64,000 bases of DNA from an uncultured Clostridia bacterium (GTDB lineage Bacteria > Bacillota > Clostridia > TANB77 > CAG-465), in NCBI GenBank assembly GCA_934169925.1, contig CAKPOO010000004.1:65604-129603 (forward strand), given 5' to 3'. Made by a program: the position numbers and the translations under genes. Of this stretch, positions 2,907 to 59,169 are shown one piece after another. The notes under the pieces are model-generated. The model ran no database searches. It was not told the DNA's origin and was given only the letters and a program-made list of their open reading frames with translations. Position 1 is the first letter of the stretch. Every line of letters begins with the position of its first letter.

Positions 2907-3632
2907 TTATAAATTAAATTCCAATTTATTAATATTTAATTTAACTTTTAAAATTCCAACAACATAAGGAGCAACTGTATATTCATTAAAATATATAATT
3001 AATTCATTTTCATTAAAAGAAAAAGTTGAATAAATATTAGGATCATTTTTAACTTTTTCTTTTATTTCTTTTTCTAAATTATATTTTTTTATCTTATCAT
3101 TATTTAATAAAGTATTTTCACACTCTGTTTTTAATACATTTAAATTATTATCACTTTTTATAATATCATCAATTGTAATAATTTTATTATCAGTTATACT
3201 ATAATTGATACAAAATAATTCAAGATTTGGATGCACTATTTGTTGTGAAATCTTTTTATAAAAAACACATGTAATATACTTCTTTTTATTTAAAGTTATT
3301 TCTTTACAATCGTACGTTATATCCATTTTTACTTTAGAATTATATTCACTTTTTTCTTTTATTAAATAAACTCTATTTTCTATATCACTTTTTATTTGAT
3401 TGTTTAATACATCATATTTAGTTTGTGGATAATAAATATTACAACTTATCTTTTCTTCATCTATAACTAATTTTTCCATTTTAAATTCTTCATTATTTTG
3501 ATAAACTTGTTTTACATTTTCAACATCATAACTTCTACTTACAAAGTATGTACATACTGAAAATACAAAAAAAATAAATAATGAAAAAATGTATTTATAT
3601 TTCATAACCTCACCCGTTAACATTATATTCAT
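2907..3632 (-). CDS. Membrane-anchored DUF3298/DUF4163-like protein (RsiV/PdaC C-terminal-like)
   Basis: N-terminal TM, then a C-terminal ...IIYFNEYTVAPYVVGILKVKL pattern typical of DUF3298. Confidence 0.4.
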   Translation of the reverse strand: MNIMLTGEVMKYKYIFSLFIFFVFSVCTYFVSRSYDVENVKQVYQNNEEFKMEKLVIDEEKISCNIYYPQTKYDVLNNQIKSDIENRVYLIKEKSEYNSKVKMDITYDCKEITLNKKKYITCVFYKKISQQIVHPNLELFCINYSITDNKIITIDDIIKSDNNLNVLKTECENTLLNNDKIKKYNLEKEIKEKVKNDPNIYSTFSFNENELIIYFNEYTVAPYVVGILKVKLNINKLEFNL

Positions 3633-7796: not shown

Positions 7797-9161
7797 ATGA
7801 CCAGCGTTATTACAAATATTTTTAGTTATTTAATTCAATCGATTGTGAATACACATTTCTTTTTAATTGTTTCAAAAAAAGTTTACAAAAATTATGAAAA
7901 TAAACATTATACAAATAAACAAAGAATAATATTTTTCATTTGTATTATTTTTTCTACTAGTTTACTAAGTACAATTTATAATTTAAATATCCAAGTTTTA
8001 TTACCCTTTAGAGGTGTTTTAATGATAGCATTGACTACTTTAATCTGTAAATTTACATTAGATATAAAGTTAGGATTATCAATAATATTAAGTATATTAT
8101 CTGCTATTTTCTCAGCTATAATTGAAATGTTTTCTACAATATTTTGTACTGCTATTTTAAGAATGGATGTTAATTTTTTACTAACAACATCTATAGGAAA
8201 ATTGTCAATTATGTCTGTTTATGGAATTTTTTCAATGTTATTAATTTTATTAATACAAAAGAAATTAAAGAATTTAAAACTTGATTCATTTACAAATAAA
8301 TTATCATTAAAAAATTTAGTAATTTTTACTATTAGTTTAGTTTTTTATGTATTTCCCCAAATGTTTTTATTTGTTAGTAATAAATATGAATATCCAATAG
8401 CATTTTTAATACTTAATATGATACAATTTCTACTAATAAATGTATTTTTACTTATATATTTAAATAAAGAACTAAAATATCAAAAATATAAATCAGATTT
8501 ATTTACATCTGAAGTTCATAATAAAGCTTTAATTGGTATGATTGATGGAGTTAGAACTTTAAAACATGATTATAATAATATTATCCAATCTTTAAACGGA
8601 TATGTTTTAACTAAACAATATGATAAATTAGAAGAATATGTAAATTCTTTACTTAACGAATGTAATTCTATTAATAACATTGCAAATTTAGATCAAAATA
8701 TATTTAATGATCCTGCAATATATGGTGTAGTTGGTTCAAAATACTTTTTGGCAACTGAAAAAAACATTAAATTTGACTTTGATATTTCAATAGATATATC
8801 AAGTATTTGCTTTTCTATGCCAGATTTATCTAGAATATTAGGAATTATTTTAGATAATGCTATTGAAGCTACTTTAAAAACAAATAAAAAATATATCAGA
8901 TTACAAATGTCTTATGATACTAGAAAAAATGCTGATGTTATCAAGGTATTCAACACATATGATAATTCTATCCAAATAGATTTAAATGAAATATACAAAA
9001 AAGGTGTATCTTCTAAAAAGATTAAATCAGGTATTGGTTTATGGGAAGTTAAAAAATTAATTTCAAAATCAAATAATTCACAAATTTATGCTACAATAGA
9101 AAAAAATAAATTTGTTCAAAATATAATTATTGAAAAAACAGATGCAAAAAATAAGAAGTGA
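7797..9161 (+). CDS. AgrC/LytS-type sensor histidine kinase (GHKL, HPK10-like)
   Basis: Six to seven N-terminal TM segments, a C-terminal ATPase domain, and adjacency to the LytTR regulator. Confidence 0.85.
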   Translation: MTSVITNIFSYLIQSIVNTHFFLIVSKKVYKNYENKHYTNKQRIIFFICIIFSTSLLSTIYNLNIQVLLPFRGVLMIALTTLICKFTLDIKLGLSIILSILSAIFSAIIEMFSTIFCTAILRMDVNFLLTTSIGKLSIMSVYGIFSMLLILLIQKKLKNLKLDSFTNKLSLKNLVIFTISLVFYVFPQMFLFVSNKYEYPIAFLILNMIQFLLINVFLLIYLNKELKYQKYKSDLFTSEVHNKALIGMIDGVRTLKHDYNNIIQSLNGYVLTKQYDKLEEYVNSLLNECNSINNIANLDQNIFNDPAIYGVVGSKYFLATEKNIKFDFDISIDISSICFSMPDLSRILGIILDNAIEATLKTNKKYIRLQMSYDTRKNADVIKVFNTYDNSIQIDLNEIYKKGVSSKKIKSGIGLWEVKKLISKSNNSQIYATIEKNKFVQNIIIEKTDAKNKK

Positions 9162-52917: not shown

Positions 52918-53250
52918 TTACAATATTTTTTTATAAATAGATTCTTTAAAATTTTTATACTCTATTGTTTTTACATAGATGCCAGTATTTTTTGAAAATG
53001 TAAAAATGTTTAGTAAAATTTCAACTATATTATTGTTTTCATAATTTAAAGCTATAAACACAGGAATTGGAAATAAAAAGATAGAAGAAACATAAACTTG
53101 TACTTTGAATGAAAGTTTAAAAAGACTTAAAAATTTAAAAATAGCTAAAACATATATAGAAATAAAAAACAGCCATTTATATTCTATAATACCTAACCAT
53201 TTATTTTTTCTATCAACATATGAAAATATTTTTTCTTTTATTTTTATCAC
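52918..53250 (-). CDS. Small two-TM membrane protein, part of the T4SS-like cluster
   Basis: Hydrophobic profile and operon position. Confidence 0.35.
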   Translation of the reverse strand: MIKIKEKIFSYVDRKNKWLGIIEYKWLFFISIYVLAIFKFLSLFKLSFKVQVYVSSIFLFPIPVFIALNYENNNIVEILLNIFTFSKNTGIYVKTIEYKNFKESIYKKIL

Positions 53251-53254
53251 CTAC

Positions 53255-54052
53255 TTATTTTTGAAAAAATTGACTAGTTATTCCATTTATCTTATATAAC
53301 ATATAAACGCTTCCTATCATTATAACTTGGTATAATTCCTCATCTAAATTTTTACACATAAGAGGTATACAAATTATAAAATAACCTATAAATTGTTGAA
53401 TAATATTGATTATAAAAACTTTTGTTAAAGATAAAAATATCCAACTTGTATTTTTTCTTGATAAAAAAATTAATGAAATTGGAAATAACATGATAGCTAA
53501 AATTATAGTTACATATCTTATAGAAAAATTAATTAAAATAGAAATACAACCAAAAGATACTGTAGTTTTTAAAACTCCACTTAAACTTAGCATATCTTGT
53601 CCTAAGACCTGATTTACACTTATTATTTCATCTTTTAAATTTACAAATGATATATCAGATTTTATAACACTAGTAAATAGTTTGTCTATACAAAACAAAA
53701 TAGAATCTGAAAGTTCAAAAAAGATTTCAAATATAAATTTAAAATTTTGTATTATTATCCCAATTACAACTATTTTAAATAAAAACAAATATATATTTTC
53801 ACTTTCTTTTCCATTATATAAATTTATTATTTTTATTGTTACAAAATAAATGACATACATAAAAAGAAGGGTTAAGCAAATCAAAACATAATTATTATAA
53901 AACTTTTTATCAAAAAAATCTTTAAGAGGAGATATTTCTAAGATATCAGATCTTATTATGAAAATTTTATCCATTAATTCATATATTTTACTATCAACTG
54001 ATGCATATATTTTTTCTAATGTAACATTTAAATTACTTATTATATCATTCAT
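53255..54052 (-). CDS. Polytopic membrane protein with VirB6/TrbL-like topology (putative)
   Basis: About 6 TM; context next to the VirB2-like protein and the ATPase. Confidence 0.35.
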   Translation of the reverse strand: MNDIISNLNVTLEKIYASVDSKIYELMDKIFIIRSDILEISPLKDFFDKKFYNNYVLICLTLLFMYVIYFVTIKIINLYNGKESENIYLFLFKIVVIGIIIQNFKFIFEIFFELSDSILFCIDKLFTSVIKSDISFVNLKDEIISVNQVLGQDMLSLSGVLKTTVSFGCISILINFSIRYVTIILAIMLFPISLIFLSRKNTSWIFLSLTKVFIINIIQQFIGYFIICIPLMCKNLDEELYQVIMIGSVYMLYKINGITSQFFQK

Positions 54053-54053
54053 T

Positions 54054-54401
54054 TTATTTTAATATTGTTTGTAAAAAAGATATTATCCAATCTAAGCTTA
54101 ATACTAATGCATATCCAACTATAGCGTTTATAATTACTTTTTTACCTTTAGCCAATTTTTCCTCATCCCCAAAGCTTAATTTTCTCATTAAAATTCCAAC
54201 AATTAAAGCAATACTTGCAATTGGTGTTGCAAGAGTTTCTAAATATGTTATTATTTTTTTCATTGCACTATTAAGTTTTGTAACTAACGTTGGATTTGTC
54301 GTTGTTGCACCATATACAAGACTAAAGCTTATAAAAAAACAAAAGAGTATTAAACTTAAAATTATTTTTTTGTTTTTTAATTTTTTTACTTTAATTTTCA
54401 T
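54054..54401 (-). CDS. VirB2/TrbC-like pilin-topology protein (signal peptide plus two hydrophobic helices)
   Basis: 115 aa with a signal-like N-terminus ...SLVYGATT and two TM segments. 4-nt overlap with the upstream ATPase gene. Confidence 0.4.
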   Translation of the reverse strand: MKIKVKKLKNKKIILSLILFCFFISFSLVYGATTTNPTLVTKLNSAMKKIITYLETLATPIASIALIVGILMRKLSFGDEEKLAKGKKVIINAIVGYALVLSLDWIISFLQTILK

Positions 54402-56068
54402 TCATCACCCTCCTTAAAATTTTTCATATTTACCTTTTCAAACAAATTTATATTATATCCATCAGATATTAAACACATAGCTTCAAAAGTTTTTAAATCT
54501 TGAGAAAAGAATTTCTCACTATACTTATATTCGTAGATATTATTATAATTATAACTTTTTGAAATTGATGTTTTATAACTTTTAAAATTTTTAGTAATAA
54601 AACTATATTTTGAATTATTTCCATTTTCACTATATGATGAATTTTTAACTATTTTATTTATCTTACCAATTTGTTTTATTATTTTTTCTATTGTATATAA
54701 GTCATCATTTCTAAACCAAATTTTATTAACAAAATTTTGAATAATAACATCAGATGTTTTTTCATTGTTTAAACTATTATAAATTGATGAATAACTTTGA
54801 ACAGCAACTACATTTATACAATTATATTCTCTTGATAAAGAAAAAAAGTGTGCATCTTCAGCATTTACAATTTCTTGAAATTCATCTGCAACAAAAAATA
54901 TAGGTTTATTTGATTTATTAGATAAAATAAATCTTTGAAATTCTAATTTTAAATATGTAGCTATTATTTTAGTTAAATTCATATTTTCTCCAAAATTTAA
55001 AGATAAAATATAAATTTTTTCATCAAAATTTAGTCTATCCTTAATTGTACAAAAACTTTTATATATCCCATAGTCATTCGAAAAAATATTTGTTATTCTC
55101 GTTATTTCTGCATTTATAATATTTTTAGTTCTTGAATCTAAATTAAAGTATTCATTATTTATAACAAAAAATGCATTATTAAATTCAAATACTTTATCTT
55201 CTGTATAATTTTTAGTTAATATGTTTTCTTTTGCTTTTAATAATAATTCATTTAAAAAATCATTTTTACAAATAACATCATTTAAATTTTTAAAATTTAT
55301 TTTTTCTCCTGCAATTTCTAAAATACACAAAAAAGCTCTTGTATACATTTCCACTTTATCAAGCCAAAAAGATTCCGTATTTTTTCCATTTGAAATTATA
55401 TTTAATATTTTCTTTATATCAGCAGATTTTTCAAAATTTGATATATTTGATGCAAGTGGATTATATTTAAAATTACTATTTAATGAAATTACTTCAATCT
55501 TTTTTTGTACATTGTATTTCTTACATATCTTTTCTAAGGTGCTATAATAATTTCCTTTTATATCGATAATAAGTCCTGTTAAATTTTTATTAATTAATCC
55601 TGTAACAATATTGTTTATTGCAGTTGATGTTTTTCCACTACCGATACTTCCAGTTATTAAAACATTTTGATAAAGACCTTTTATTGGTACATATATTTCG
55701 TTATTAACTGTTTTTCCTAAATAAATTAAATCATCATTGTCTAATCTTTTATTTTCTTTTTTTAATTTTACATTAGCCACTTTCAAATTTATTTTAAATA
55801 CTATTATTAAAATAAATATAAAAGACTCCAATAAATATAATACCTTAAAAATTAACTCATTTTTAAAAATTTGACTTAAACAAATATTTTTTGAAAATAT
55901 CTTTAGATAGATAAAATTGAAAGATAAAAATTTATAAGTTATAGAAATTTTAAATAAAAATAAAGAAATAGTTTGAATAAAAATGTAAAATATAAAAAAT
56001 ATTTTTTGAGATAAGTTGAATTGGTTAAAAAAAATCTTAGATAAAACATTATTATTTTGACTTACCAA
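54398..56068 (-). CDS. TraD/TrwB/VirD4-like P-loop NTPase with N-terminal TM segments (T4SS coupling-protein-like)
   Basis: NVLITGSIGSGKTSTA...GLIIDIKGNYY (Walker A plus the xxDpKG-like motif) and FFVADEFQEI (Walker B); N-terminal TMs. Confidence 0.55.
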   Translation of the reverse strand: MVSQNNNVLSKIFFNQFNLSQKIFFIFYIFIQTISLFLFKISITYKFLSFNFIYLKIFSKNICLSQIFKNELIFKVLYLLESFIFILIIVFKINLKVANVKLKKENKRLDNDDLIYLGKTVNNEIYVPIKGLYQNVLITGSIGSGKTSTAINNIVTGLINKNLTGLIIDIKGNYYSTLEKICKKYNVQKKIEVISLNSNFKYNPLASNISNFEKSADIKKILNIISNGKNTESFWLDKVEMYTRAFLCILEIAGEKINFKNLNDVICKNDFLNELLLKAKENILTKNYTEDKVFEFNNAFFVINNEYFNLDSRTKNIINAEITRITNIFSNDYGIYKSFCTIKDRLNFDEKIYILSLNFGENMNLTKIIATYLKLEFQRFILSNKSNKPIFFVADEFQEIVNAEDAHFFSLSREYNCINVVAVQSYSSIYNSLNNEKTSDVIIQNFVNKIWFRNDDLYTIEKIIKQIGKINKIVKNSSYSENGNNSKYSFITKNFKSYKTSISKSYNYNNIYEYKYSEKFFSQDLKTFEAMCLISDGYNINLFEKVNMKNFKEGDE

Positions 56069-56369
56069 GTTGCTATTTATATCATTTTGATTTTCTGGTG
56101 ATATTTTTTGTAACTTTTTACCTACAGTACAAAAAAATATTCATTTATCAACGAAACGATATAAAAATAGAATTAAAGAAATTGAAATAAAAACTATATC
56201 GATAAAAATCATTCAACTCACCTCCCATAACATTGTAATACAGATTTTCAAAATATCAACTTAATTTATCAATTATTACATTTTATTACAATTCTTGTTG
56301 TTTTTCGACAACATTTTTTGATATATTTTTATAATTTTTAAATTTTTTAAAATTTTTTTATTTTTTCTA

Positions 56370-56417: not shown

Positions 56418-56493
56418 GGGCTATTAGCTCAGTTGGCAGAGCACTTGACTTTTAATCAAGTTGTCCGCAGTTCGAACCTGCGATAGCTCACCA
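56418..56493 (+). tRNA. tRNA-Lys(UUU)
   Basis: Cloverleaf, anticodon loop CUUUUAA, encoded CCA. Confidence 0.9.
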
Positions 56494-56501
56494 CTTTTTT
56501 T

Positions 56502-56576
56502 GGCCCGTTGGTCAATCGGTTAAGACATCGCCCTTTCACGGCGGAGTGGGGAGTTCGACTCTCCCACGGGTCACCA
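56502..56576 (+). tRNA. tRNA-Glu(UUC)
   Basis: Acceptor GGCCCGT/ACGGGTC, anticodon loop CUUUCAC, CCA. Confidence 0.85.
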
Positions 56577-56586
56577 TGTATTGCAT

Positions 56587-56662
56587 GCTGGAATAGCTCA
56601 GCAGGTAGAGCAACGGTCTTGTAAACCGTAGGTCGCCCGTTCGATTCGGGCTTTCAGCTCCA
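56587..56662 (+). tRNA. tRNA-Thr(UGU)
   Basis: Acceptor GCTGGAA/TTTCAGC, anticodon loop CUUGUAA, CCA. Confidence 0.85.
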
Positions 56663-56813: not shown

Positions 56814-57149
56814 ATGAGAAAAAATTCAAATTTGAAATCAAAAATTAAAACCAACATTATCATTATTGTTATAACACTACTGATAATCATAACATTCTTT
56901 TATTGTATTTATTATTCTGAGCATAACGGACAAATATCTCAAAGTACTGGTGTTATTACTTATAAAGAGTATGTAAAAGGTAATGAATATATAAAAAGAC
57001 CTCTTATTTTACAAAATGGTAAAATAATATATTTAGATTATTTCAGTTCTGATTATGAAAAAATAGAAGTTGGTAAGGAATACAAACTTGAAATTTCAAA
57101 TTCAGGCGACAGATATTTCTTAAACAAAATTATTGAAGTTATCGAGTAA
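56814..57149 (+). CDS. Small membrane-anchored hypothetical protein
   Basis: RBS GGAGG; N-terminal TM; hairpin terminator follows at 57151-57185. Confidence 0.5.
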   Translation: MRKNSNLKSKIKTNIIIIVITLLIIITFFYCIYYSEHNGQISQSTGVITYKEYVKGNEYIKRPLILQNGKIIYLDYFSSDYEKIEVGKEYKLEISNSGDRYFLNKIIEVIE

Positions 57150-58104: not shown

Positions 58105-59169
58105 TTAAATTGTTCCCCTTGATATAAGTGAATTTTTTACACTTATTACTCTATTGCTATATGCTCTATTTAATATACCTTGTGAGAAACATTGTGAATA
58201 ATATGCTGCATCTCCCATATTATATGAGTTTAAAGCATAAACTTCAACAGAATCTTCTGATACAAATTTTCTTGCATTATTCATATATAATGATAACATA
58301 TATGCTCCAGATGTCATATTATCATATGGATCAAATAAATCTGTAACACCTAATTTACTAGATAAATTTGAATAATTAGAATAATGTATTTGGCATAAGC
58401 CATATGCTGTTCCACTTGATGCATTTACATTAAATCCACTTTCGCAATACATAACTGCAAGCAATAATTCATACTGTATGCCATACTTTTTACATATATT
58501 ATACGCATATTCTTGATATTCTCTTGAAAGTGGTATGTTATAATACCTAAATCCTGCATCTGTAGCTGATGATGCAACAGATTGAACAATATTACTTCTT
58601 GAAGATGTAATAATTTTTGTACCTATTTCTATTACTTGATTTTCTACCTCAGATAATACTTCAGTACCAATTTTTGCTCTTTCTACTACTTCACCATTAT
58701 TATATCTTACTAAATATTTTGTACATATTTTTCCATCTTTTCCTTCTTTTAAAACATTTGTTACTCCCCTATCTAAAGTTGAGTTATTTTGTTTTTCTTC
58801 TTCATAAGGAACATCTTCTATAACTTCTTCAATTTTAGCAATTATAACCTGATTATCTTTAATCATTTTATCAATATCAATCTTTGCTAATTGATCTGTA
58901 CTTTCAATTTCAATAACCATACCATTTTCTAATTCAGTAGAAGTCTCAGGCCATATTTTTTCATTATTATTTAATGATATTTTATTTTGAATTAAAAAAT
59001 CTTGAACATTTGTTGCCATGGTTTTTATTGTTTGTTTATCACCATGATAGTCTAAAGTAACTGTTTTTAATTGTGAGTTAATCATAAATAGACCAACTGT
59101 TGAAAAAAACAAAATTAAGCAAATTACTGTGAAAGTCTTTCTTACATAATAAGCTTTATCTTCTTTCAC
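58105..59169 (-). CDS. Membrane-anchored G5-domain lytic transglycosylase (YabE-like position upstream of ksgA)
   Basis: G5-like KEGKDGKICTKYLVRYNNGEVV and a C-terminal SLT-like CESGFN...AYGLCQI. Confidence 0.7.
   Translation of the reverse strand: MKEDKAYYVRKTFTVICLILFFSTVGLFMINSQLKTVTLDYHGDKQTIKTMATNVQDFLIQNKISLNNNEKIWPETSTELENGMVIEIESTDQLAKIDIDKMIKDNQVIIAKIEEVIEDVPYEEEKQNNSTLDRGVTNVLKEGKDGKICTKYLVRYNNGEVVERAKIGTEVLSEVENQVIEIGTKIITSSRSNIVQSVASSATDAGFRYYNIPLSREYQEYAYNICKKYGIQYELLLAVMYCESGFNVNASSGTAYGLCQIHYSNYSNLSSKLGVTDLFDPYDNMTSGAYMLSLYMNNARKFVSEDSVEVYALNSYNMGDAAYYSQCFSQGILNRAYSNRVISVKNSLISRGTI

What the first reader, a model, noticed from the sequence alone, without database searches (positions are those of the whole stretch)
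52918..56068. Compact T4SS-like module next to a tRNA cluster: TraD/TrwB-like ATPase plus VirB2-like and VirB6-like membrane proteins, with no relaxase or VirB4
Four overlapping minus-strand genes make up this module: a 556-aa N-terminally membrane-anchored P-loop NTPase with coupling-protein-like Walker A and viiDxKG motifs, a 115-aa protein with pilin-like signal plus two-helix topology, a polytopic 265-aa protein, and a small TM protein. They sit between the chromosomal dnaB-dnaI pair and a tRNA-Lys/Glu/Thr cluster, separated from it by a ~350-bp AT-rich gap. No relaxase, VirB4, integrase or repeats are visible. The module is either a stranded ICE remnant or a minimal secretion/DNA-uptake apparatus of unknown function.
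Basis: partly seen in the sequence, partly recalled or inferred. Interest (0 to 1): 0.62.

Follow-up and report, generated by a model that had tools for sequence, protein, structure and literature searches.

The report
Conserved mini type IV secretion operon
Four tightly packed genes encode a stripped-down version of the machine that conjugative plasmids use to push DNA or protein out of a cell; the same gene set, in the same place next to replication genes, is found in about 80 related species of uncultured gut Clostridia, so it is a domesticated host system of unknown cargo and not a dead mobile element.

Summary
The four minus-strand genes are real. All four can be tied to type IV secretion families:
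- a coupling-protein (VirD4/TrwB-type) ATPase
- a VirB2/TrbC-type pilin
- a VirB6/TrbL-like polytopic protein
- a PrgI/VirB3-like two-helix protein

In 59 of 68 species-level relatives with enough sequence, the order ATPase–pilin–VirB6–small ORF–dnaD–dnaI is kept without insertion, and 6 more keep it with 1–2.3 kb inserted. In most relatives the tRNA Lys-Glu-Thr cluster lies upstream. The relatives are uncultured, low-GC gut Clostridia of the TANB77 kind.

Evidence for a native, functional operon:
- Divergence tracks that of the neighbouring core genes.
- dN/dS is 0.04–0.35 (most values at or below 0.2).
- GC3 equals the genome background.
- No integrase, relaxase, att repeats or VirB4 lie nearby.

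The best reading is a domesticated, vertically inherited T4SS-derived membrane translocon driven by a coupling-type ATPase. It resembles the archaeal Ced/Ted systems and the chromosomal T4SS of Patescibacteria. The cargo is unknown. Whether a VirB4 is encoded elsewhere in the genome is untested.

In this genome the ATPase gene has an in-frame TGA at codon 24. An independent assembly carries the same TGA.

The parts
56232..56259 (-). Promoter-like site (TTGATA-16 nt-TACAAT) upstream of the true start of the ATPase gene
   Evidence: Consensus scan, 10 of 12 matches. This is weak evidence: such matches occur at chance frequency in this AT-rich DNA (63 found, 62.8 expected).
54398..56212 (-). Full-length coupling-protein-like (VirD4/TrwB-type) ATPase gene of 604 codons. 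The start is ATG 56212 behind GGGAGG (56221-56226). An in-frame TGA at 56141-56143 (codon 24) cuts off the first of three predicted membrane helices.
   Evidence: ORF. Sequence and frame. Alignment with the 608-aa homologue P0001, which has Trp at the stop position. The same TGA is present in the independent assembly L091. Pfam TrwB_AAD_bind and TraG-D_C. AF2 model with pLDDT 85. Foldseek top hits Cag-beta and TrwB. Three TM segments predicted in the full-length protein.
54054..54401 (-). VirB2/TrbC-type pilin gene: signal peptide, conserved cleavage-type motif (VYG|A..(D/N)PTL), then two hydrophobic helices joined by the conserved loop RK(F/L)SFGDEEK
   Evidence: Pfam T4SS_pilin 31.5 bits and TrbC 29.1 bits, both above threshold. 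Family alignment A7. TM scan. The start overlaps the ATPase stop codon by 4 nt.
53255..54052 (-). VirB6/TrbL-like polytopic membrane protein gene (5 predicted membrane helices)
   Evidence: The window protein itself has no Pfam hit, but 38 of 72 syntenic orthologues hit TrbL/VirB6 PF04610, best E 5.7e-7. AF2 model with pLDDT 80. The five best Foldseek PDB hits are all TrwI/VirB6 of R388, but they are weak (E 0.12, TM 0.32-0.37). A local hhalign match to the VirB6-like region of TcpH gives E 6e-4.
52918..53250 (-). PrgI/VirB3-like small protein gene with two membrane helices (motif LGIIxYK before the hairpin, invariant Pro in helix 2)
   Evidence: A 93-131-aa ORF occupies this position in nearly all relatives. 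Alignment A3. 22 of 68 members hit PrgI PF12666 (best E 1.5e-4) and 6 hit VirB3. The window protein alone has no hit, and there is no hhalign match to TcpE.
51902..52885 (-). DnaD/DnaB_2-domain replication initiation gene, directly downstream on the same strand. The probable start is ATG 52861 behind AGGTGG.
   Evidence: Pfam DnaB_2 110 bits and NCBIfam DnaD_dom 77 bits. It follows the small gene within 1 kb of the VirB6-like gene in 59 of 68 relatives. A promoter-like TTGTAA-17-TATAAT lies at 52923-52895.
50878..51891 (-). DnaI/DnaC-type helicase loader gene, last gene of the co-oriented block. A convergent DnaJ-like gene follows.
   Evidence: NCBIfam PRK06835 312.9 bits, cutoff 215. It is adjacent to dnaD in 67 of 68 relatives.
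56418..56662 (+). Divergently transcribed tRNA Lys(ttt)-Glu(ttc)-Thr(tgt) cluster, a conserved neighbour of the module
   Evidence: ARAGORN. The same cluster lies upstream of the ATPase gene in 42 of 56 relatives scanned, in divergent orientation in 34 of them. The module lies at the 5' side of tRNA-Lys, not at a tRNA 3' end.

Best explanation
This is a domesticated, vertically inherited set of type IV secretion genes fixed in the chromosome of a whole lineage of uncultured, low-GC gut Clostridia (the TANB77 kind). It is not part of a mobile element.

**What the four genes encode.** The genes are closely spaced or overlapping and probably translationally coupled. Together they encode a membrane translocon:
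- a hexameric coupling-protein-type ATPase anchored by N-terminal helices, acting as the motor;
- a VirB6-like polytopic protein acting as the channel or platform;
- a PrgI/VirB3-like two-helix subunit;
- a signal-peptide-bearing VirB2-type pilin that would be extracted from the membrane to form a short conduit or pilus.

**How it is arranged.** The genes are co-oriented with dnaD-dnaI and sit directly upstream of them, probably as one transcription unit with an optional internal promoter.

**Proposed function.** I infer that the machine moves a macromolecule across the single membrane without a relaxase. The most likely cargo is DNA exchanged between cells, as in the archaeal Ced/Ted systems. 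The coupling-type ATPase would do the job that VirB4 does in all described T4SSs.

**Shown versus inferred.** Shown: the family assignments, the gene order, the vertical inheritance, the purifying selection, and the lack of element hallmarks. Inferred: assembly into one complex, independence from VirB4, the cargo, and the direction of transport.
For: **Family assignments.**
- The ATPase passes the Pfam thresholds for TrwB_AAD_bind and TraG-D_C.
- Its AF2 model (pLDDT 85) has N-terminal membrane helices, a RecA-type core and a helical insertion at residues 211-339. It matches Cag-beta (E 1.6e-12) and TrwB (target-normalised TM 0.68) better than HerA or VirB4 (1.4e-8).
- The pilin passes T4SS_pilin and TrbC.
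- VirB6/TrbL is hit by 38 of 72 orthologues, and TrwI gives the top fold hits.
- PrgI or VirB3 is hit by 28 of 68 orthologues of the small protein.

**Fixation and vertical descent.**
- 186 species-level genomes encode a relative.
- In 59 of 68 loci with room, dnaD starts less than 1 kb after the VirB6-like gene, and 6 more have 1-2.3 kb insertions there. dnaD-dnaI are adjacent in 67 of 68.
- The tRNA K-E-T cluster lies upstream in 42 of 56 relatives.
- Identities fall together: ATPase 35-54%, DnaD 32-70%, GyrA 58-90%.
- dS of the module genes is broadly similar to dS of dnaD/dnaI in the same genome pairs.

**Function retained.**
- dN/dS is 0.04-0.35 for all four genes in informative pairs, most values at or below 0.2.
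- 57 residues are invariant across 52 ATPases, including Walker A and the Walker B DE pair.

**Not an element.**
- GC3 is 0.10-0.13 against a window mean of 0.115.
- No att-like repeats.
- Only housekeeping neighbours.
- Only 15 of 72,556 plasmids give any tblastn match, all at 26% identity or less.
- The nearest outgroup ATPases are in integrase-bearing elements without dnaD, which suggests where the module came from.

**No second motor nearby.** No TcpF-type VirB4 and no paralogous ATPase was found in the window or in 1.44 Mb of related loci.

**Precedents.** Ced/Ted are chromosomal, relaxase-free T4SS derivatives made of an ATPase, a VirB6 and a VirB2, and they import DNA in concert with type IV pili (PMC9905601). 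Patescibacteria keep relaxase-free chromosomal T4SS genes, including VirB2-like pilins (PMC12102498). TANB77 has an order-wide conserved Tad pilus cluster (PMC11680825).
Against: - VirB4 is described as the only ubiquitous T4SS protein (PMC4027160 abstract), and VirB3 normally partners VirB4. I could not search whole genomes, so a VirB4, a VirB8 or a relaxase may be encoded elsewhere.
- The VirB6-like and PrgI-like assignments rest on orthologues and weak scores. The window proteins themselves hit nothing, profile searches against PDB sequences found nothing, and the TrwI fold matches have E 0.12.
- Nothing identifies the cargo or the direction of transport. The DNA reading is an analogy.
- The link to dnaD-dnaI may be frozen synteny rather than function. 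A promoter-like element precedes dnaD.
- The ATPase gene is interrupted in this species by a TGA at codon 24, present in two assemblies, and in about 4-5 other relatives. So the system is dispensable in at least some lineages.
- The module genes evolve several-fold faster than dnaD/dnaI.
Confidence: 0.5

Rival explanations
1. Split but otherwise ordinary T4SS. The four genes are the coupling protein, pilin, VirB6 and VirB3 of a complete system whose VirB4 (and VirB8, a cell-wall hydrolase, and perhaps a relaxase) is encoded elsewhere on the chromosome. This would resemble Patescibacteria, where coupling-protein genes usually lie far from virB4.
For: - VirB4 is regarded as universal in T4SSs (PMC4027160).
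- In Patescibacteria only 148 of 5,713 coupling-protein homologues are encoded near virB4.
- VirB3-family proteins normally bind VirB4.
- My search for VirB4 covered only the 64-kb window and about 8-10 kb around the module in relatives, and it used a single VirB4 query.
Against: - In described systems virB3 lies next to, or is fused with, virB4 (established knowledge). Here it is packed with the coupling-type ATPase in all relatives.
- No VirB4 Pfam family appears in the gene tables of three long contigs.
- No VirB4-like hit appears in 1.44 Mb of loci.
Confidence: 0.2
2. Pilus or protein-secretion device. The module assembles a VirB2-type surface fibre, or exports proteins, for adhesion or for interaction with neighbouring bacteria or the host. 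No DNA is moved.
For: - The pilin is the best conserved of the four proteins, at 33-71% identity.
- It has a strictly conserved loop and a cleavage-type motif.
- Coupling proteins of effector-translocating systems such as Cag-beta are the best fold match.
- Relaxase-free T4SSs in Patescibacteria are thought to serve host interaction.
Against: - No candidate effector, adhesin or VirB5-like tip gene is conserved next to the module.
- Pilus biogenesis in known systems depends on VirB4, not on the coupling protein (established knowledge; not tested here).
Confidence: 0.15
3. Chromosome-handling DNA pump. The membrane-anchored, FtsK-related ATPase works with DnaD and DnaI on the cell's own chromosome, for example in membrane attachment of the origin, in segregation, or in restart. 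The membrane partners serve as its anchor.
For: - The six genes are co-oriented and adjacent in 59-65 of 68 relatives, whereas the genes around them vary in position and orientation.
- Coupling proteins belong to the FtsK/HerA superfamily.
- No terminator was found between the module and dnaD.
Against: - A secreted, signal-peptide-bearing VirB2 pilin has no place in such a role.
- The ATPase gene is interrupted in several lineages, including this one, which does not fit a core replication function.
- The module genes evolve several-fold faster than dnaD/dnaI.
- FtsK_SpoIIIE scores below threshold.
Confidence: 0.08
4. Stranded remnant of an integrative conjugative element that is decaying after loss of its relaxase, VirB4 and integrase.
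For: - All four genes belong to families typical of conjugative elements.
- A tRNA cluster is adjacent.
- Overall GC is about 19% against 25% for the window.
- There is an in-frame stop in the ATPase gene.
- The closest outgroup ATPases sit in integrase-bearing elements.
Against: - The gene order and flanks are the same in about 80 species whose ATPases are only 35-54% identical.
- dN/dS is 0.04-0.35, most values at or below 0.2.
- Catalytic residues are invariant.
- GC3 is identical to the background, and the low overall GC is shared by other membrane-protein genes and by dnaI.
- No att repeats.
- The module lies at the 5' side of the tRNA genes, not at a 3' end.
Confidence: 0.03

Closest known systems
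Archaeal Ced and Ted DNA-exchange systems (CedA/CedA1/CedA2/CedB; TedA/TedB/TedC)
   Same: - They are chromosomal, vertically inherited, relaxase-free derivatives of a T4SS, reduced to one membrane-associated ATPase, a VirB6-like polytopic protein and VirB2-like pilin(s), plus a further small two-helix protein (CedA2).
- TedC, like the pilin here, has a cleavable signal peptide.
- Ced works together with type IV (Ups) pili, and TANB77 carries an order-wide Tad pilus cluster (PMC9905601; PMC11680825).
   Different: - The Ced/Ted ATPase is VirB4/HerA-type. Here it is coupling-protein (VirD4/TrwB) type.
- The host here is a monoderm bacterium.
- The second small protein here is PrgI/VirB3-like.
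- The module here is joined to dnaD-dnaI.
- I did not test sequence homology to the Ced proteins, and DNA import is not shown here.
Chromosomal, relaxase-free T4SS of Patescibacteria (CPR), derived from monoderm MPF-FATA conjugation systems
   Same: - It occurs in reduced-genome, uncultured bacteria.
- It is a chromosomal T4SS gene set containing PrgI/VirB3, VirB6 and VirB2-like pilins detected by the same Pfam models (PF04956, PF18895).
- It usually lacks a relaxase, and it is often placed near replication genes (PMC12102498).
   Different: - The CPR system is built around VirB4 (plus TrsD), and the coupling protein is usually encoded elsewhere. Here the coupling-type ATPase is the only ATPase in the cluster, and no VirB4 lies nearby.
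- There is a single pilin gene here, not an array.
Conjugative type IV coupling proteins (TrwB of R388, VirD4, Cag-beta of H. pylori)
   Same: - N-terminal membrane anchor.
- RecA-type nucleotide-binding domain with Walker A and B motifs.
- Inserted all-alpha domain.
- Pfam TrwB_AAD_bind and TraG-D_C above threshold.
- Best fold matches.
   Different: - Only 10-14% identity to the solved structures, and no HMM match to any PDB sequence.
- Three rather than two predicted N-terminal helices.
- An extra beta-rich C-terminal part at residues 469-547.
- No relaxase or VirB4 partner nearby.
- Chromosomal and vertically inherited.
Gram-positive conjugative T4SS (pCF10 PrgH/PrgI/PrgJ/PcfC; pCW3 Tcp)
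   Same: It is a monoderm system containing PrgI/VirB3-like and VirB6-like membrane proteins and a coupling ATPase. PrgI is the best Pfam family for the small protein's orthologues. There is a weak local match to the VirB6-like region of TcpH.
   Different: - Those systems are plasmid- or ICE-borne.
- They always include VirB4 (PrgJ, TcpF), a VirB8-like protein, a hydrolase and a relaxase.
- They are described as lacking VirB2 pilins.
- There is no detectable similarity to TcpE, TcpF or TcpA.
Helicobacter pylori ComB competence system (from my own knowledge, not tested here)
   Same: It is a chromosomal, relaxase-free T4SS derivative used for DNA transport, with VirB2, VirB3 and VirB6 homologues.
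   Different: ComB has VirB4 and the outer-membrane core (VirB7-10) and lacks a coupling protein. That is the opposite ATPase choice to this module.

Membership tests
Type IV coupling protein (VirD4/TrwB/TraG-TraD) | Sequence match to the family models above curated thresholds | tested here: met
   TrwB_AAD_bind 47.9 bits (cut-off 20.5) over residues 133-500. TraG-D_C 32.1 bits (cut-off 22). The NCBIfam SXT_TraD subfamily is not met: 48 bits against a cut-off of 366.
Type IV coupling protein (VirD4/TrwB/TraG-TraD) | N-terminal transmembrane anchor followed by a cytoplasmic nucleotide-binding domain with Walker A and B motifs | tested here: met
   Three hydrophobic segments in the full-length protein, two in the truncated ORF. 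GSIGSGKT and the D395-E396 pair are invariant in 52 sequences.
Type IV coupling protein (VirD4/TrwB/TraG-TraD) | TrwB-like fold with an inserted all-alpha domain | tested here: met
   AF2 model with pLDDT 85 and helices at 211-339. Foldseek finds Cag-beta at E 1.6e-12 and TrwB at E 1.3e-11 with TM 0.68 normalised to the target; VirB4 scores only 1.4e-8.
Type IV coupling protein (VirD4/TrwB/TraG-TraD) | Works with a relaxase/relaxosome or dedicated effectors and a VirB4-containing channel | tested here: not met
   No relaxase, VirB4 or effector candidates lie in the flanking 8-10 kb of the window or of the relatives. Genome-wide presence could not be tested.
Canonical type IV secretion system (mating-pair formation module) | VirB4 ATPase, the only protein found in all T4SS classes | tested here: not met
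   No CagE_TrbE or AAA_10 hit on the ATPase. No TcpF-like ORF (phmmer E<=1) and no second ATPase of this superfamily in the window or in 1.44 Mb of related loci. The test covers the locus only, not whole genomes, and used one VirB4 query.
Canonical type IV secretion system (mating-pair formation module) | VirB6/TrbL-type polytopic channel protein | tested here: met
   Met at family level: 38 of 72 orthologues hit PF04610 (best E 5.7e-7) and 2 hit TrbL_4. The top five fold hits are TrwI/VirB6, though weak. The window protein alone gives no Pfam hit.
Canonical type IV secretion system (mating-pair formation module) | VirB3/PrgI-type small membrane protein | tested here: inconclusive
   22 of 68 orthologues hit PrgI (best E 1.5e-4) and 6 hit VirB3 (best 0.018). 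The window protein has no hit. No match to TcpE by hhalign.
Canonical type IV secretion system (mating-pair formation module) | VirB2/TrbC-type pilin | tested here: met
   T4SS_pilin 31.5 bits (cut-off 26.6) and TrbC 29.1 bits (cut-off 27.9). Signal peptide plus two helices.
Canonical type IV secretion system (mating-pair formation module) | VirB8-like protein and a VirB1-like cell-wall hydrolase in the cluster | tested here: not met
   The cluster has only four genes before dnaD. A G5-SLT transglycosylase lies 2 kb away next to ksgA, on the far side of the tRNA cluster from the module. ksgA and this gene are detected upstream of the module in only 16-17 of the 85 loci. Reading it as part of the ordinary yabE-ksgA arrangement of Firmicutes is from my own knowledge.
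Integrative conjugative element or its remnant | Integrase and/or relaxase, flanking att repeats, insertion at a tRNA 3' end | tested here: not met
   No such genes in the flanks. No att-like repeats. The module faces the 5' end of tRNA-Lys.
Integrative conjugative element or its remnant | Patchy distribution, foreign composition, or decay of reading frames | tested here: not met
   The block is present with the same neighbours in 59-65 of 68 relatives. GC3 equals the background. dN/dS is 0.04-0.35, most values at or below 0.2. There are isolated interruptions of the ATPase gene in about 6 of 85 genomes.
Ced/Ted-type domesticated DNA-exchange system | Chromosomal, lineage-wide, relaxase-free set of one ATPase, a VirB6-like protein and a VirB2-like pilin | tested here: met
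   Definition taken from PMC9905601.
Ced/Ted-type domesticated DNA-exchange system | ATPase of the VirB4/HerA type; homology to CedA/CedB | tested here: not met
   The ATPase is coupling-protein type. Direct comparison with Ced/Ted sequences was not done.
Ced/Ted-type domesticated DNA-exchange system | Imports chromosomal DNA between aggregated cells | not testable with these tools
   This needs culture or enrichment experiments. TANB77 is uncultured (PMC11680825).

The most novel reading that the evidence does not exclude
The module is a bacterial counterpart of the archaeal Ced system: a self-sufficient, relaxase-free and VirB4-free DNA-exchange machine. In it a coupling-protein-type ATPase alone powers DNA passage through a VirB6/VirB3 channel and a VirB2 conduit. 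It would be the first T4SS-derived apparatus shown to work without VirB4. It is co-expressed with the DnaD/DnaI helicase-loading proteins, so that transferred single-stranded DNA could be primed and replicated or recombined. The order-wide Tad pili of TANB77 would bring the cells together.
Probability: 0.18. Interest if true: 0.85.

Novelty: new variant of a known kind. Interest (0 to 1): 0.62.

Why it matters
All described type IV secretion systems are built around VirB4, and VirB2 pilins are considered absent from the conjugation systems of monoderm bacteria. This module pairs a VirB2 pilin, a VirB6 and a VirB3/PrgI with a coupling-type ATPase as the only local motor. It has been kept for a long evolutionary time in the chromosome of a Gram-positive-type lineage.

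If the module works on its own, it shows a second route by which conjugation machinery has been domesticated, after Ced/Ted in archaea and the T4SS of Patescibacteria. It would also give a very small model system of four proteins for asking what the inner-membrane part of a T4SS can do without VirB4.

The host clade matters as well. TANB77 is an uncultured, reduced-genome gut order whose abundance tracks response to cancer immunotherapy (PMC11680825). Surface or exchange machinery conserved across the whole order is a candidate for how these bacteria depend on, or talk to, their neighbours.

I found no paper in the searchable library that links TANB77 to type IV secretion.

Tried and rejected
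1. **TGA read as Trp (genetic code 4).** Rejected. TGA ends 7 of 56 long ORFs, including the ATPase gene itself, and Trp is encoded by TGG 49 times. In-frame stops in relatives are not concentrated at Trp positions.
2. **The in-frame TGA as a sequencing error.** Rejected. An independent ENA assembly of the same species has the identical sequence.
3. **Defence-system ATPase.** PADLOC gave only a weak mad8 hit (32 bits) and a HerA hit (19 bits), and no hits for the three partners. I read this as generic P-loop similarity.
4. **Phage origin.** PHROGs gave nothing for the ATPase, and only unknown-function families for the pilin.
5. **Profile searches against PDB sequences.** Profiles of the ATPase, VirB6-like and small-protein families found nothing meaningful.
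6. **The 'conserved pilin' of TANB77 reported in PMC11680825.** It belongs to a Tad (type IVc) pilus cluster at a different locus.
7. **Named, cultured carriers.** The listing of cluster members on ten distant representatives gave no organism names.
8. **afdb50 fold search.** The library was unavailable.
9. **hhalign against pCW3 proteins.** The small-protein family against TcpE gave no match. The VirB6-like family against TcpH gave only a 45-column local match.
10. **Exact look-up of the window ATPase in the contig index.** Not on record.
11. **Promoter scan.** Hits occur at chance frequency in this AT-rich DNA, so they do not settle the operon structure.

Full report
**1. What is there**

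The tRNA Lys-Glu-Thr cluster lies at 56418-56662 on the opposite strand.

- The 556-aa protein passes the Pfam thresholds for the coupling-protein families TrwB_AAD_bind (47.9 bits, residues 133-500) and TraG-D_C (32.1 bits). It scores below threshold for FtsK_SpoIIIE and hits no VirB4 family.
- The 115-aa protein passes both T4SS_pilin and TrbC/VirB2.
- The 265-aa and 110-aa proteins hit nothing on their own.
- Downstream on the same strand lie a DnaD/DnaB_2-domain initiation protein and a DnaI/DnaC-type helicase loader (NCBIfam PRK06835, 312.9 bits against a cut-off of 215). A convergent DnaJ-like gene and gyrA follow.
- Upstream, beyond the tRNAs, are ksgA, a G5-SLT (YabE-like) gene, a dUTPase-like gene, miaA and mutL. 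The setting is therefore housekeeping.

**2. A correction at the 5' end**

Homologues of the ATPase are about 610 aa long, and the window ORF is short at its N-terminus. The sequence shows an ATG at 56212 behind a GGGAGG ribosome-binding site, 23 sense codons encoding a hydrophobic helix, and then an in-frame TGA at 56141-56143. At that position the 95%-identical homologue P0001 has Trp.

TGA is a genuine stop in this genome: it ends 7 of 56 long ORFs, and Trp is TGG 49 times. An independent ENA assembly of the same species carries the identical TGA. The interruption is therefore real and not an error.

The consequences:
- The interruption removes the first of three predicted membrane helices.
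- Every conserved residue downstream is intact.
- The product would have to come from an internal start such as TTG 56068, or from low-level read-through of TGA by tRNA-Trp. The read-through idea is an inference from what I know of Bacillus and was not tested.

**3. The decisive comparison**

A pattern scan of one genome per GTDB species found 186 genomes that encode a relative of the ATPase, and 80 loci were kept. All are uncultured gut MAGs labelled Clostridia or Clostridium sp. (CAG:465, CAG:492, CAG:921, CAG:1219, Ca. Scatovivens, Ca. Fimenecus). CAG-492 is named as a TANB77 genus in PMC11680825.

Mapping the window proteins onto these loci, and onto five loci fetched by exact protein look-up, gave the following:
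- The pilin follows the ATPase in 85 of 85 loci.
- The VirB6-like gene follows in 82.
- A 93-131-aa ORF follows that in nearly all.

Among 68 loci with enough downstream sequence:
- dnaD begins within 1 kb of the end of the VirB6-like gene in 59.
- dnaD begins within 1-2.3 kb in 6 more.
- dnaD-dnaI are adjacent in 67 of 68.

The divergently oriented tRNA Lys-Glu-Thr cluster is upstream in 34 of 56 loci scanned, and nearby but inverted in 8 more.

Identities decline together: ATPase 35-54%, DnaD 32-70%, GyrA 58-90%.

In genome pairs with dS of 0.2-0.9:
- The module genes have broadly the same dS as dnaD and dnaI.
- dN/dS is 0.04-0.35 for the module genes, most values at or below 0.2.
- dN/dS is 0.01-0.09 for dnaD and 0.03-0.21 for dnaI.

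GC3 of the four genes (0.10-0.13) equals the window mean of 0.115. The low overall GC is shared by other membrane-protein genes and by dnaI. No att-like repeats flank the block. The module also faces the 5' end of the tRNA genes, whereas integrases target tRNA 3' ends (for the orientation; the targeting rule is established knowledge).

That is exactly what is seen.

**4. Identity of the two unassigned proteins**

Every member of the orthologue alignments was scanned against Pfam.
- For the 265-aa family, 38 of 72 members hit TrbL/VirB6 (best E 5.7e-7) and 2 hit TrbL_4.
- For the small protein, 22 of 68 members hit PrgI, the VirB3 counterpart of Gram-positive systems (best E 1.5e-4), and 6 hit VirB3.

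An AF2 model of the 265-aa protein (pLDDT 80) is an all-helical bundle with five membrane helices. Its five best Foldseek hits in the PDB are all TrwI/VirB6 of plasmid R388, but with weak statistics (E 0.12, TM 0.32-0.37). hhalign gave a short local match to the VirB6-like region of TcpH (E 6e-4) and none between the small protein and TcpE.

I regard the VirB6 assignment as good at family level, and the PrgI/VirB3 assignment as probable.

**5. The ATPase is coupling-type, not VirB4-type**

The AF2 model (pLDDT 85) shows N-terminal membrane helices, a RecA-type core, a helical insertion at residues 211-339, and a beta-rich C-terminal part. Foldseek ranks the hits as follows:
- Cag-beta (8dol, E 1.6e-12)
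- TrwB (1e9s, E 1.3e-11, TM 0.68 on the target)
- HerA (5e-9)
- VirB4 (4ag6, 1.4e-8)

At sequence level the family is remote from everything characterised:
- A 9-sequence profile finds no PDB sequence.
- Only 15 of 72,556 plasmids give a tblastn match, all at 26% identity or less.
- In a library of 1.84 billion representatives, only 240 score E<=1e-30.

The next-best group of relatives (693-759 aa, 250-350 bits) lies in a different setting. Those loci carry an integrase in two of the three loci examined, a 1000-1668-aa protein with HTH_45/Replic_Relax-like traces, an M23 peptidase, and an HD protein in two of the three. That looks like an undescribed mobile element. It is a plausible source from which the ancestor of this lineage captured the gene set.

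**6. What is missing**

No VirB4, VirB8, relaxase or integrase appears in the gene tables of the long contigs. A phmmer search with the clostridial VirB4 TcpF, and an HMM of the ATPase family itself, found no further ATPase of this superfamily in the window or in 1.44 Mb of related loci.

This is a statement about the locus only. Whole genomes could not be searched with the tools available, so a VirB4 elsewhere remains possible. Against that possibility, virB3 is normally adjacent to or fused with virB4, whereas here it is packed with the coupling-type ATPase in every relative.

**7. How it most likely works**

*Shown.* There are four co-oriented genes, either overlapping or separated by a few bases: an ATGA overlap, then gaps of 1 and 4 nt. 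Each is under purifying selection. They encode a membrane-anchored hexamer-type ATPase, a pilin with a signal peptide and a conserved cleavage-type motif, a polytopic VirB6-like protein and a two-helix PrgI-like protein.

*Inferred.* They form one membrane complex. The ATPase feeds a substrate into a VirB6/VirB3 channel, and the pilin is extracted to form a short conduit through the wall.

These four proteins include three of the components that contact DNA on its way across the inner membrane in the Agrobacterium model: VirD4, then VirB6, then VirB2. That comparison comes from my own knowledge. With no relaxase nearby, I think the most likely cargo is DNA moved between cells, as in the archaeal Ced/Ted systems. 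Those systems are described as domesticated T4SS derivatives made of an ATPase, a VirB6 and a VirB2 that import DNA in concert with type IV pili (PMC9905601). TANB77 has an order-wide Tad pilus cluster (PMC11680825).

The persistent linkage to dnaD-dnaI could mean co-expression with the helicase-loading machinery, or it could be frozen synteny. A promoter-like element sits just before dnaD, and no terminator separates it from the module. In this AT-rich DNA such motif matches occur at chance frequency, so they settle nothing.

The ATPase gene is interrupted in this species and in a few relatives: L011 by an in-frame TGA, and L028, L054 and L057 by frameshifts. This fits an accessory function that can be lost, not an essential one.

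**8. Comparison with what is known, and novelty**

The closest analogues are Ced/Ted and the relaxase-free chromosomal T4SS of Patescibacteria. Both are VirB4-based.

The module fails the membership test for a canonical T4SS, because no VirB4 is present locally, and it fails the test for an ICE. Its ATPase meets all the structural criteria of a coupling protein but lacks the usual partners.

Searches of the paper library found nothing that links TANB77 or related Clostridia to type IV secretion.

I rate it a new variant of a known kind: a domesticated T4SS derivative that uses the coupling-type ATPase in place of VirB4, in a monoderm bacterium, with a VirB2 pilin. The rating depends on the untested absence of VirB4 elsewhere in these genomes, and the function is inferred by analogy only.

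Noticed in passing
window 56141-56143 (minus strand, codon 24 of the ATPase gene 54398-56212): There is an in-frame TGA where a 95%-identical homologue has TGG (Trp). The identical TGA is present in an independent ENA assembly of the same species (L091). The rest of the gene keeps all invariant residues. The protein may be expressed from an internal start or by read-through.
   Followed up: yes
L011 (about 8349), L028 (about 8220-8310), L054 (about 8378), L057 (about 3534-3548): The orthologous ATPase gene is also interrupted in a few other species-level genomes: one GGA-to-TGA stop and three apparent frameshifts. Some of these may be MAG assembly errors in AT-rich homopolymers. Otherwise they indicate recurrent loss of the motor.
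   Followed up: partly
window 56418-56662; relatives L001-L081: The tRNA Lys(ttt)-Glu(ttc)-Thr(tgt) trio is itself a conserved neighbour. It lies upstream of the ATPase gene, in divergent orientation, in 34 of 56 relatives, and nearby but inverted in 8 more. A few deep-branching relatives have tRNA-Arg(cct) there instead.
   Followed up: yes
L086 1-18082; L088 1-13868; L089; L090 1-14150: The nearest outgroup of the ATPase family (693-759 aa) sits in what looks like an undescribed integrative element. The loci hold a giant 1000-1668-aa protein with faint HTH_45/Replic_Relax matches, a 332-396-aa protein, a roughly 90-aa protein (171 aa in L090), the ATPase, and an M23 peptidase; a tyrosine integrase and an HD-domain protein are each present in two of the three loci (L086, L088). 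No VirB4 is recognisable there either.
   Followed up: partly
window 52895-52923 and 52859-52885: A near-consensus promoter-like motif (TTGTAA, 17 nt, TATAAT) overlaps the stop codon of the small gene. The dnaD-like gene more probably starts at ATG 52861, behind AGGTGG, than at the listed TTG 52885. That start gives 319 aa, in line with the 315-325 aa of most orthologues.
   Followed up: partly
window 56814-57149 (+): A 111-aa single-pass membrane protein lies between the tRNA cluster and ksgA. It has only a faint SosA-like NCBIfam match (18 bits). It is present in the same-species assembly L091 but was not detected in any other relative.
   Followed up: partly
window 58105-59169 (-): A G5 + SLT lytic transglycosylase (YabE-like) lies next to ksgA, 2 kb from the module. 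ksgA and this gene are detected upstream of the module in 16-17 of the 85 loci. This is probably the ordinary Firmicute yabE-ksgA arrangement, but it is the only cell-wall hydrolase near a module that lacks a VirB1-like enzyme.
   Followed up: no
window 1-64000: Gene orientation and cumulative GC skew fall steadily across the region profiled (46-62 kb), and most genes across the window are on the minus strand. The window also holds the large ribosomal-protein gene block (about 13-22 kb), ksgA and gyrA. From my knowledge of Firmicute chromosome maps, this suggests an origin-proximal position on one replichore, as reported for T4SS genes in some Patescibacteria. gyrA is not next to gyrB here.
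   Followed up: no
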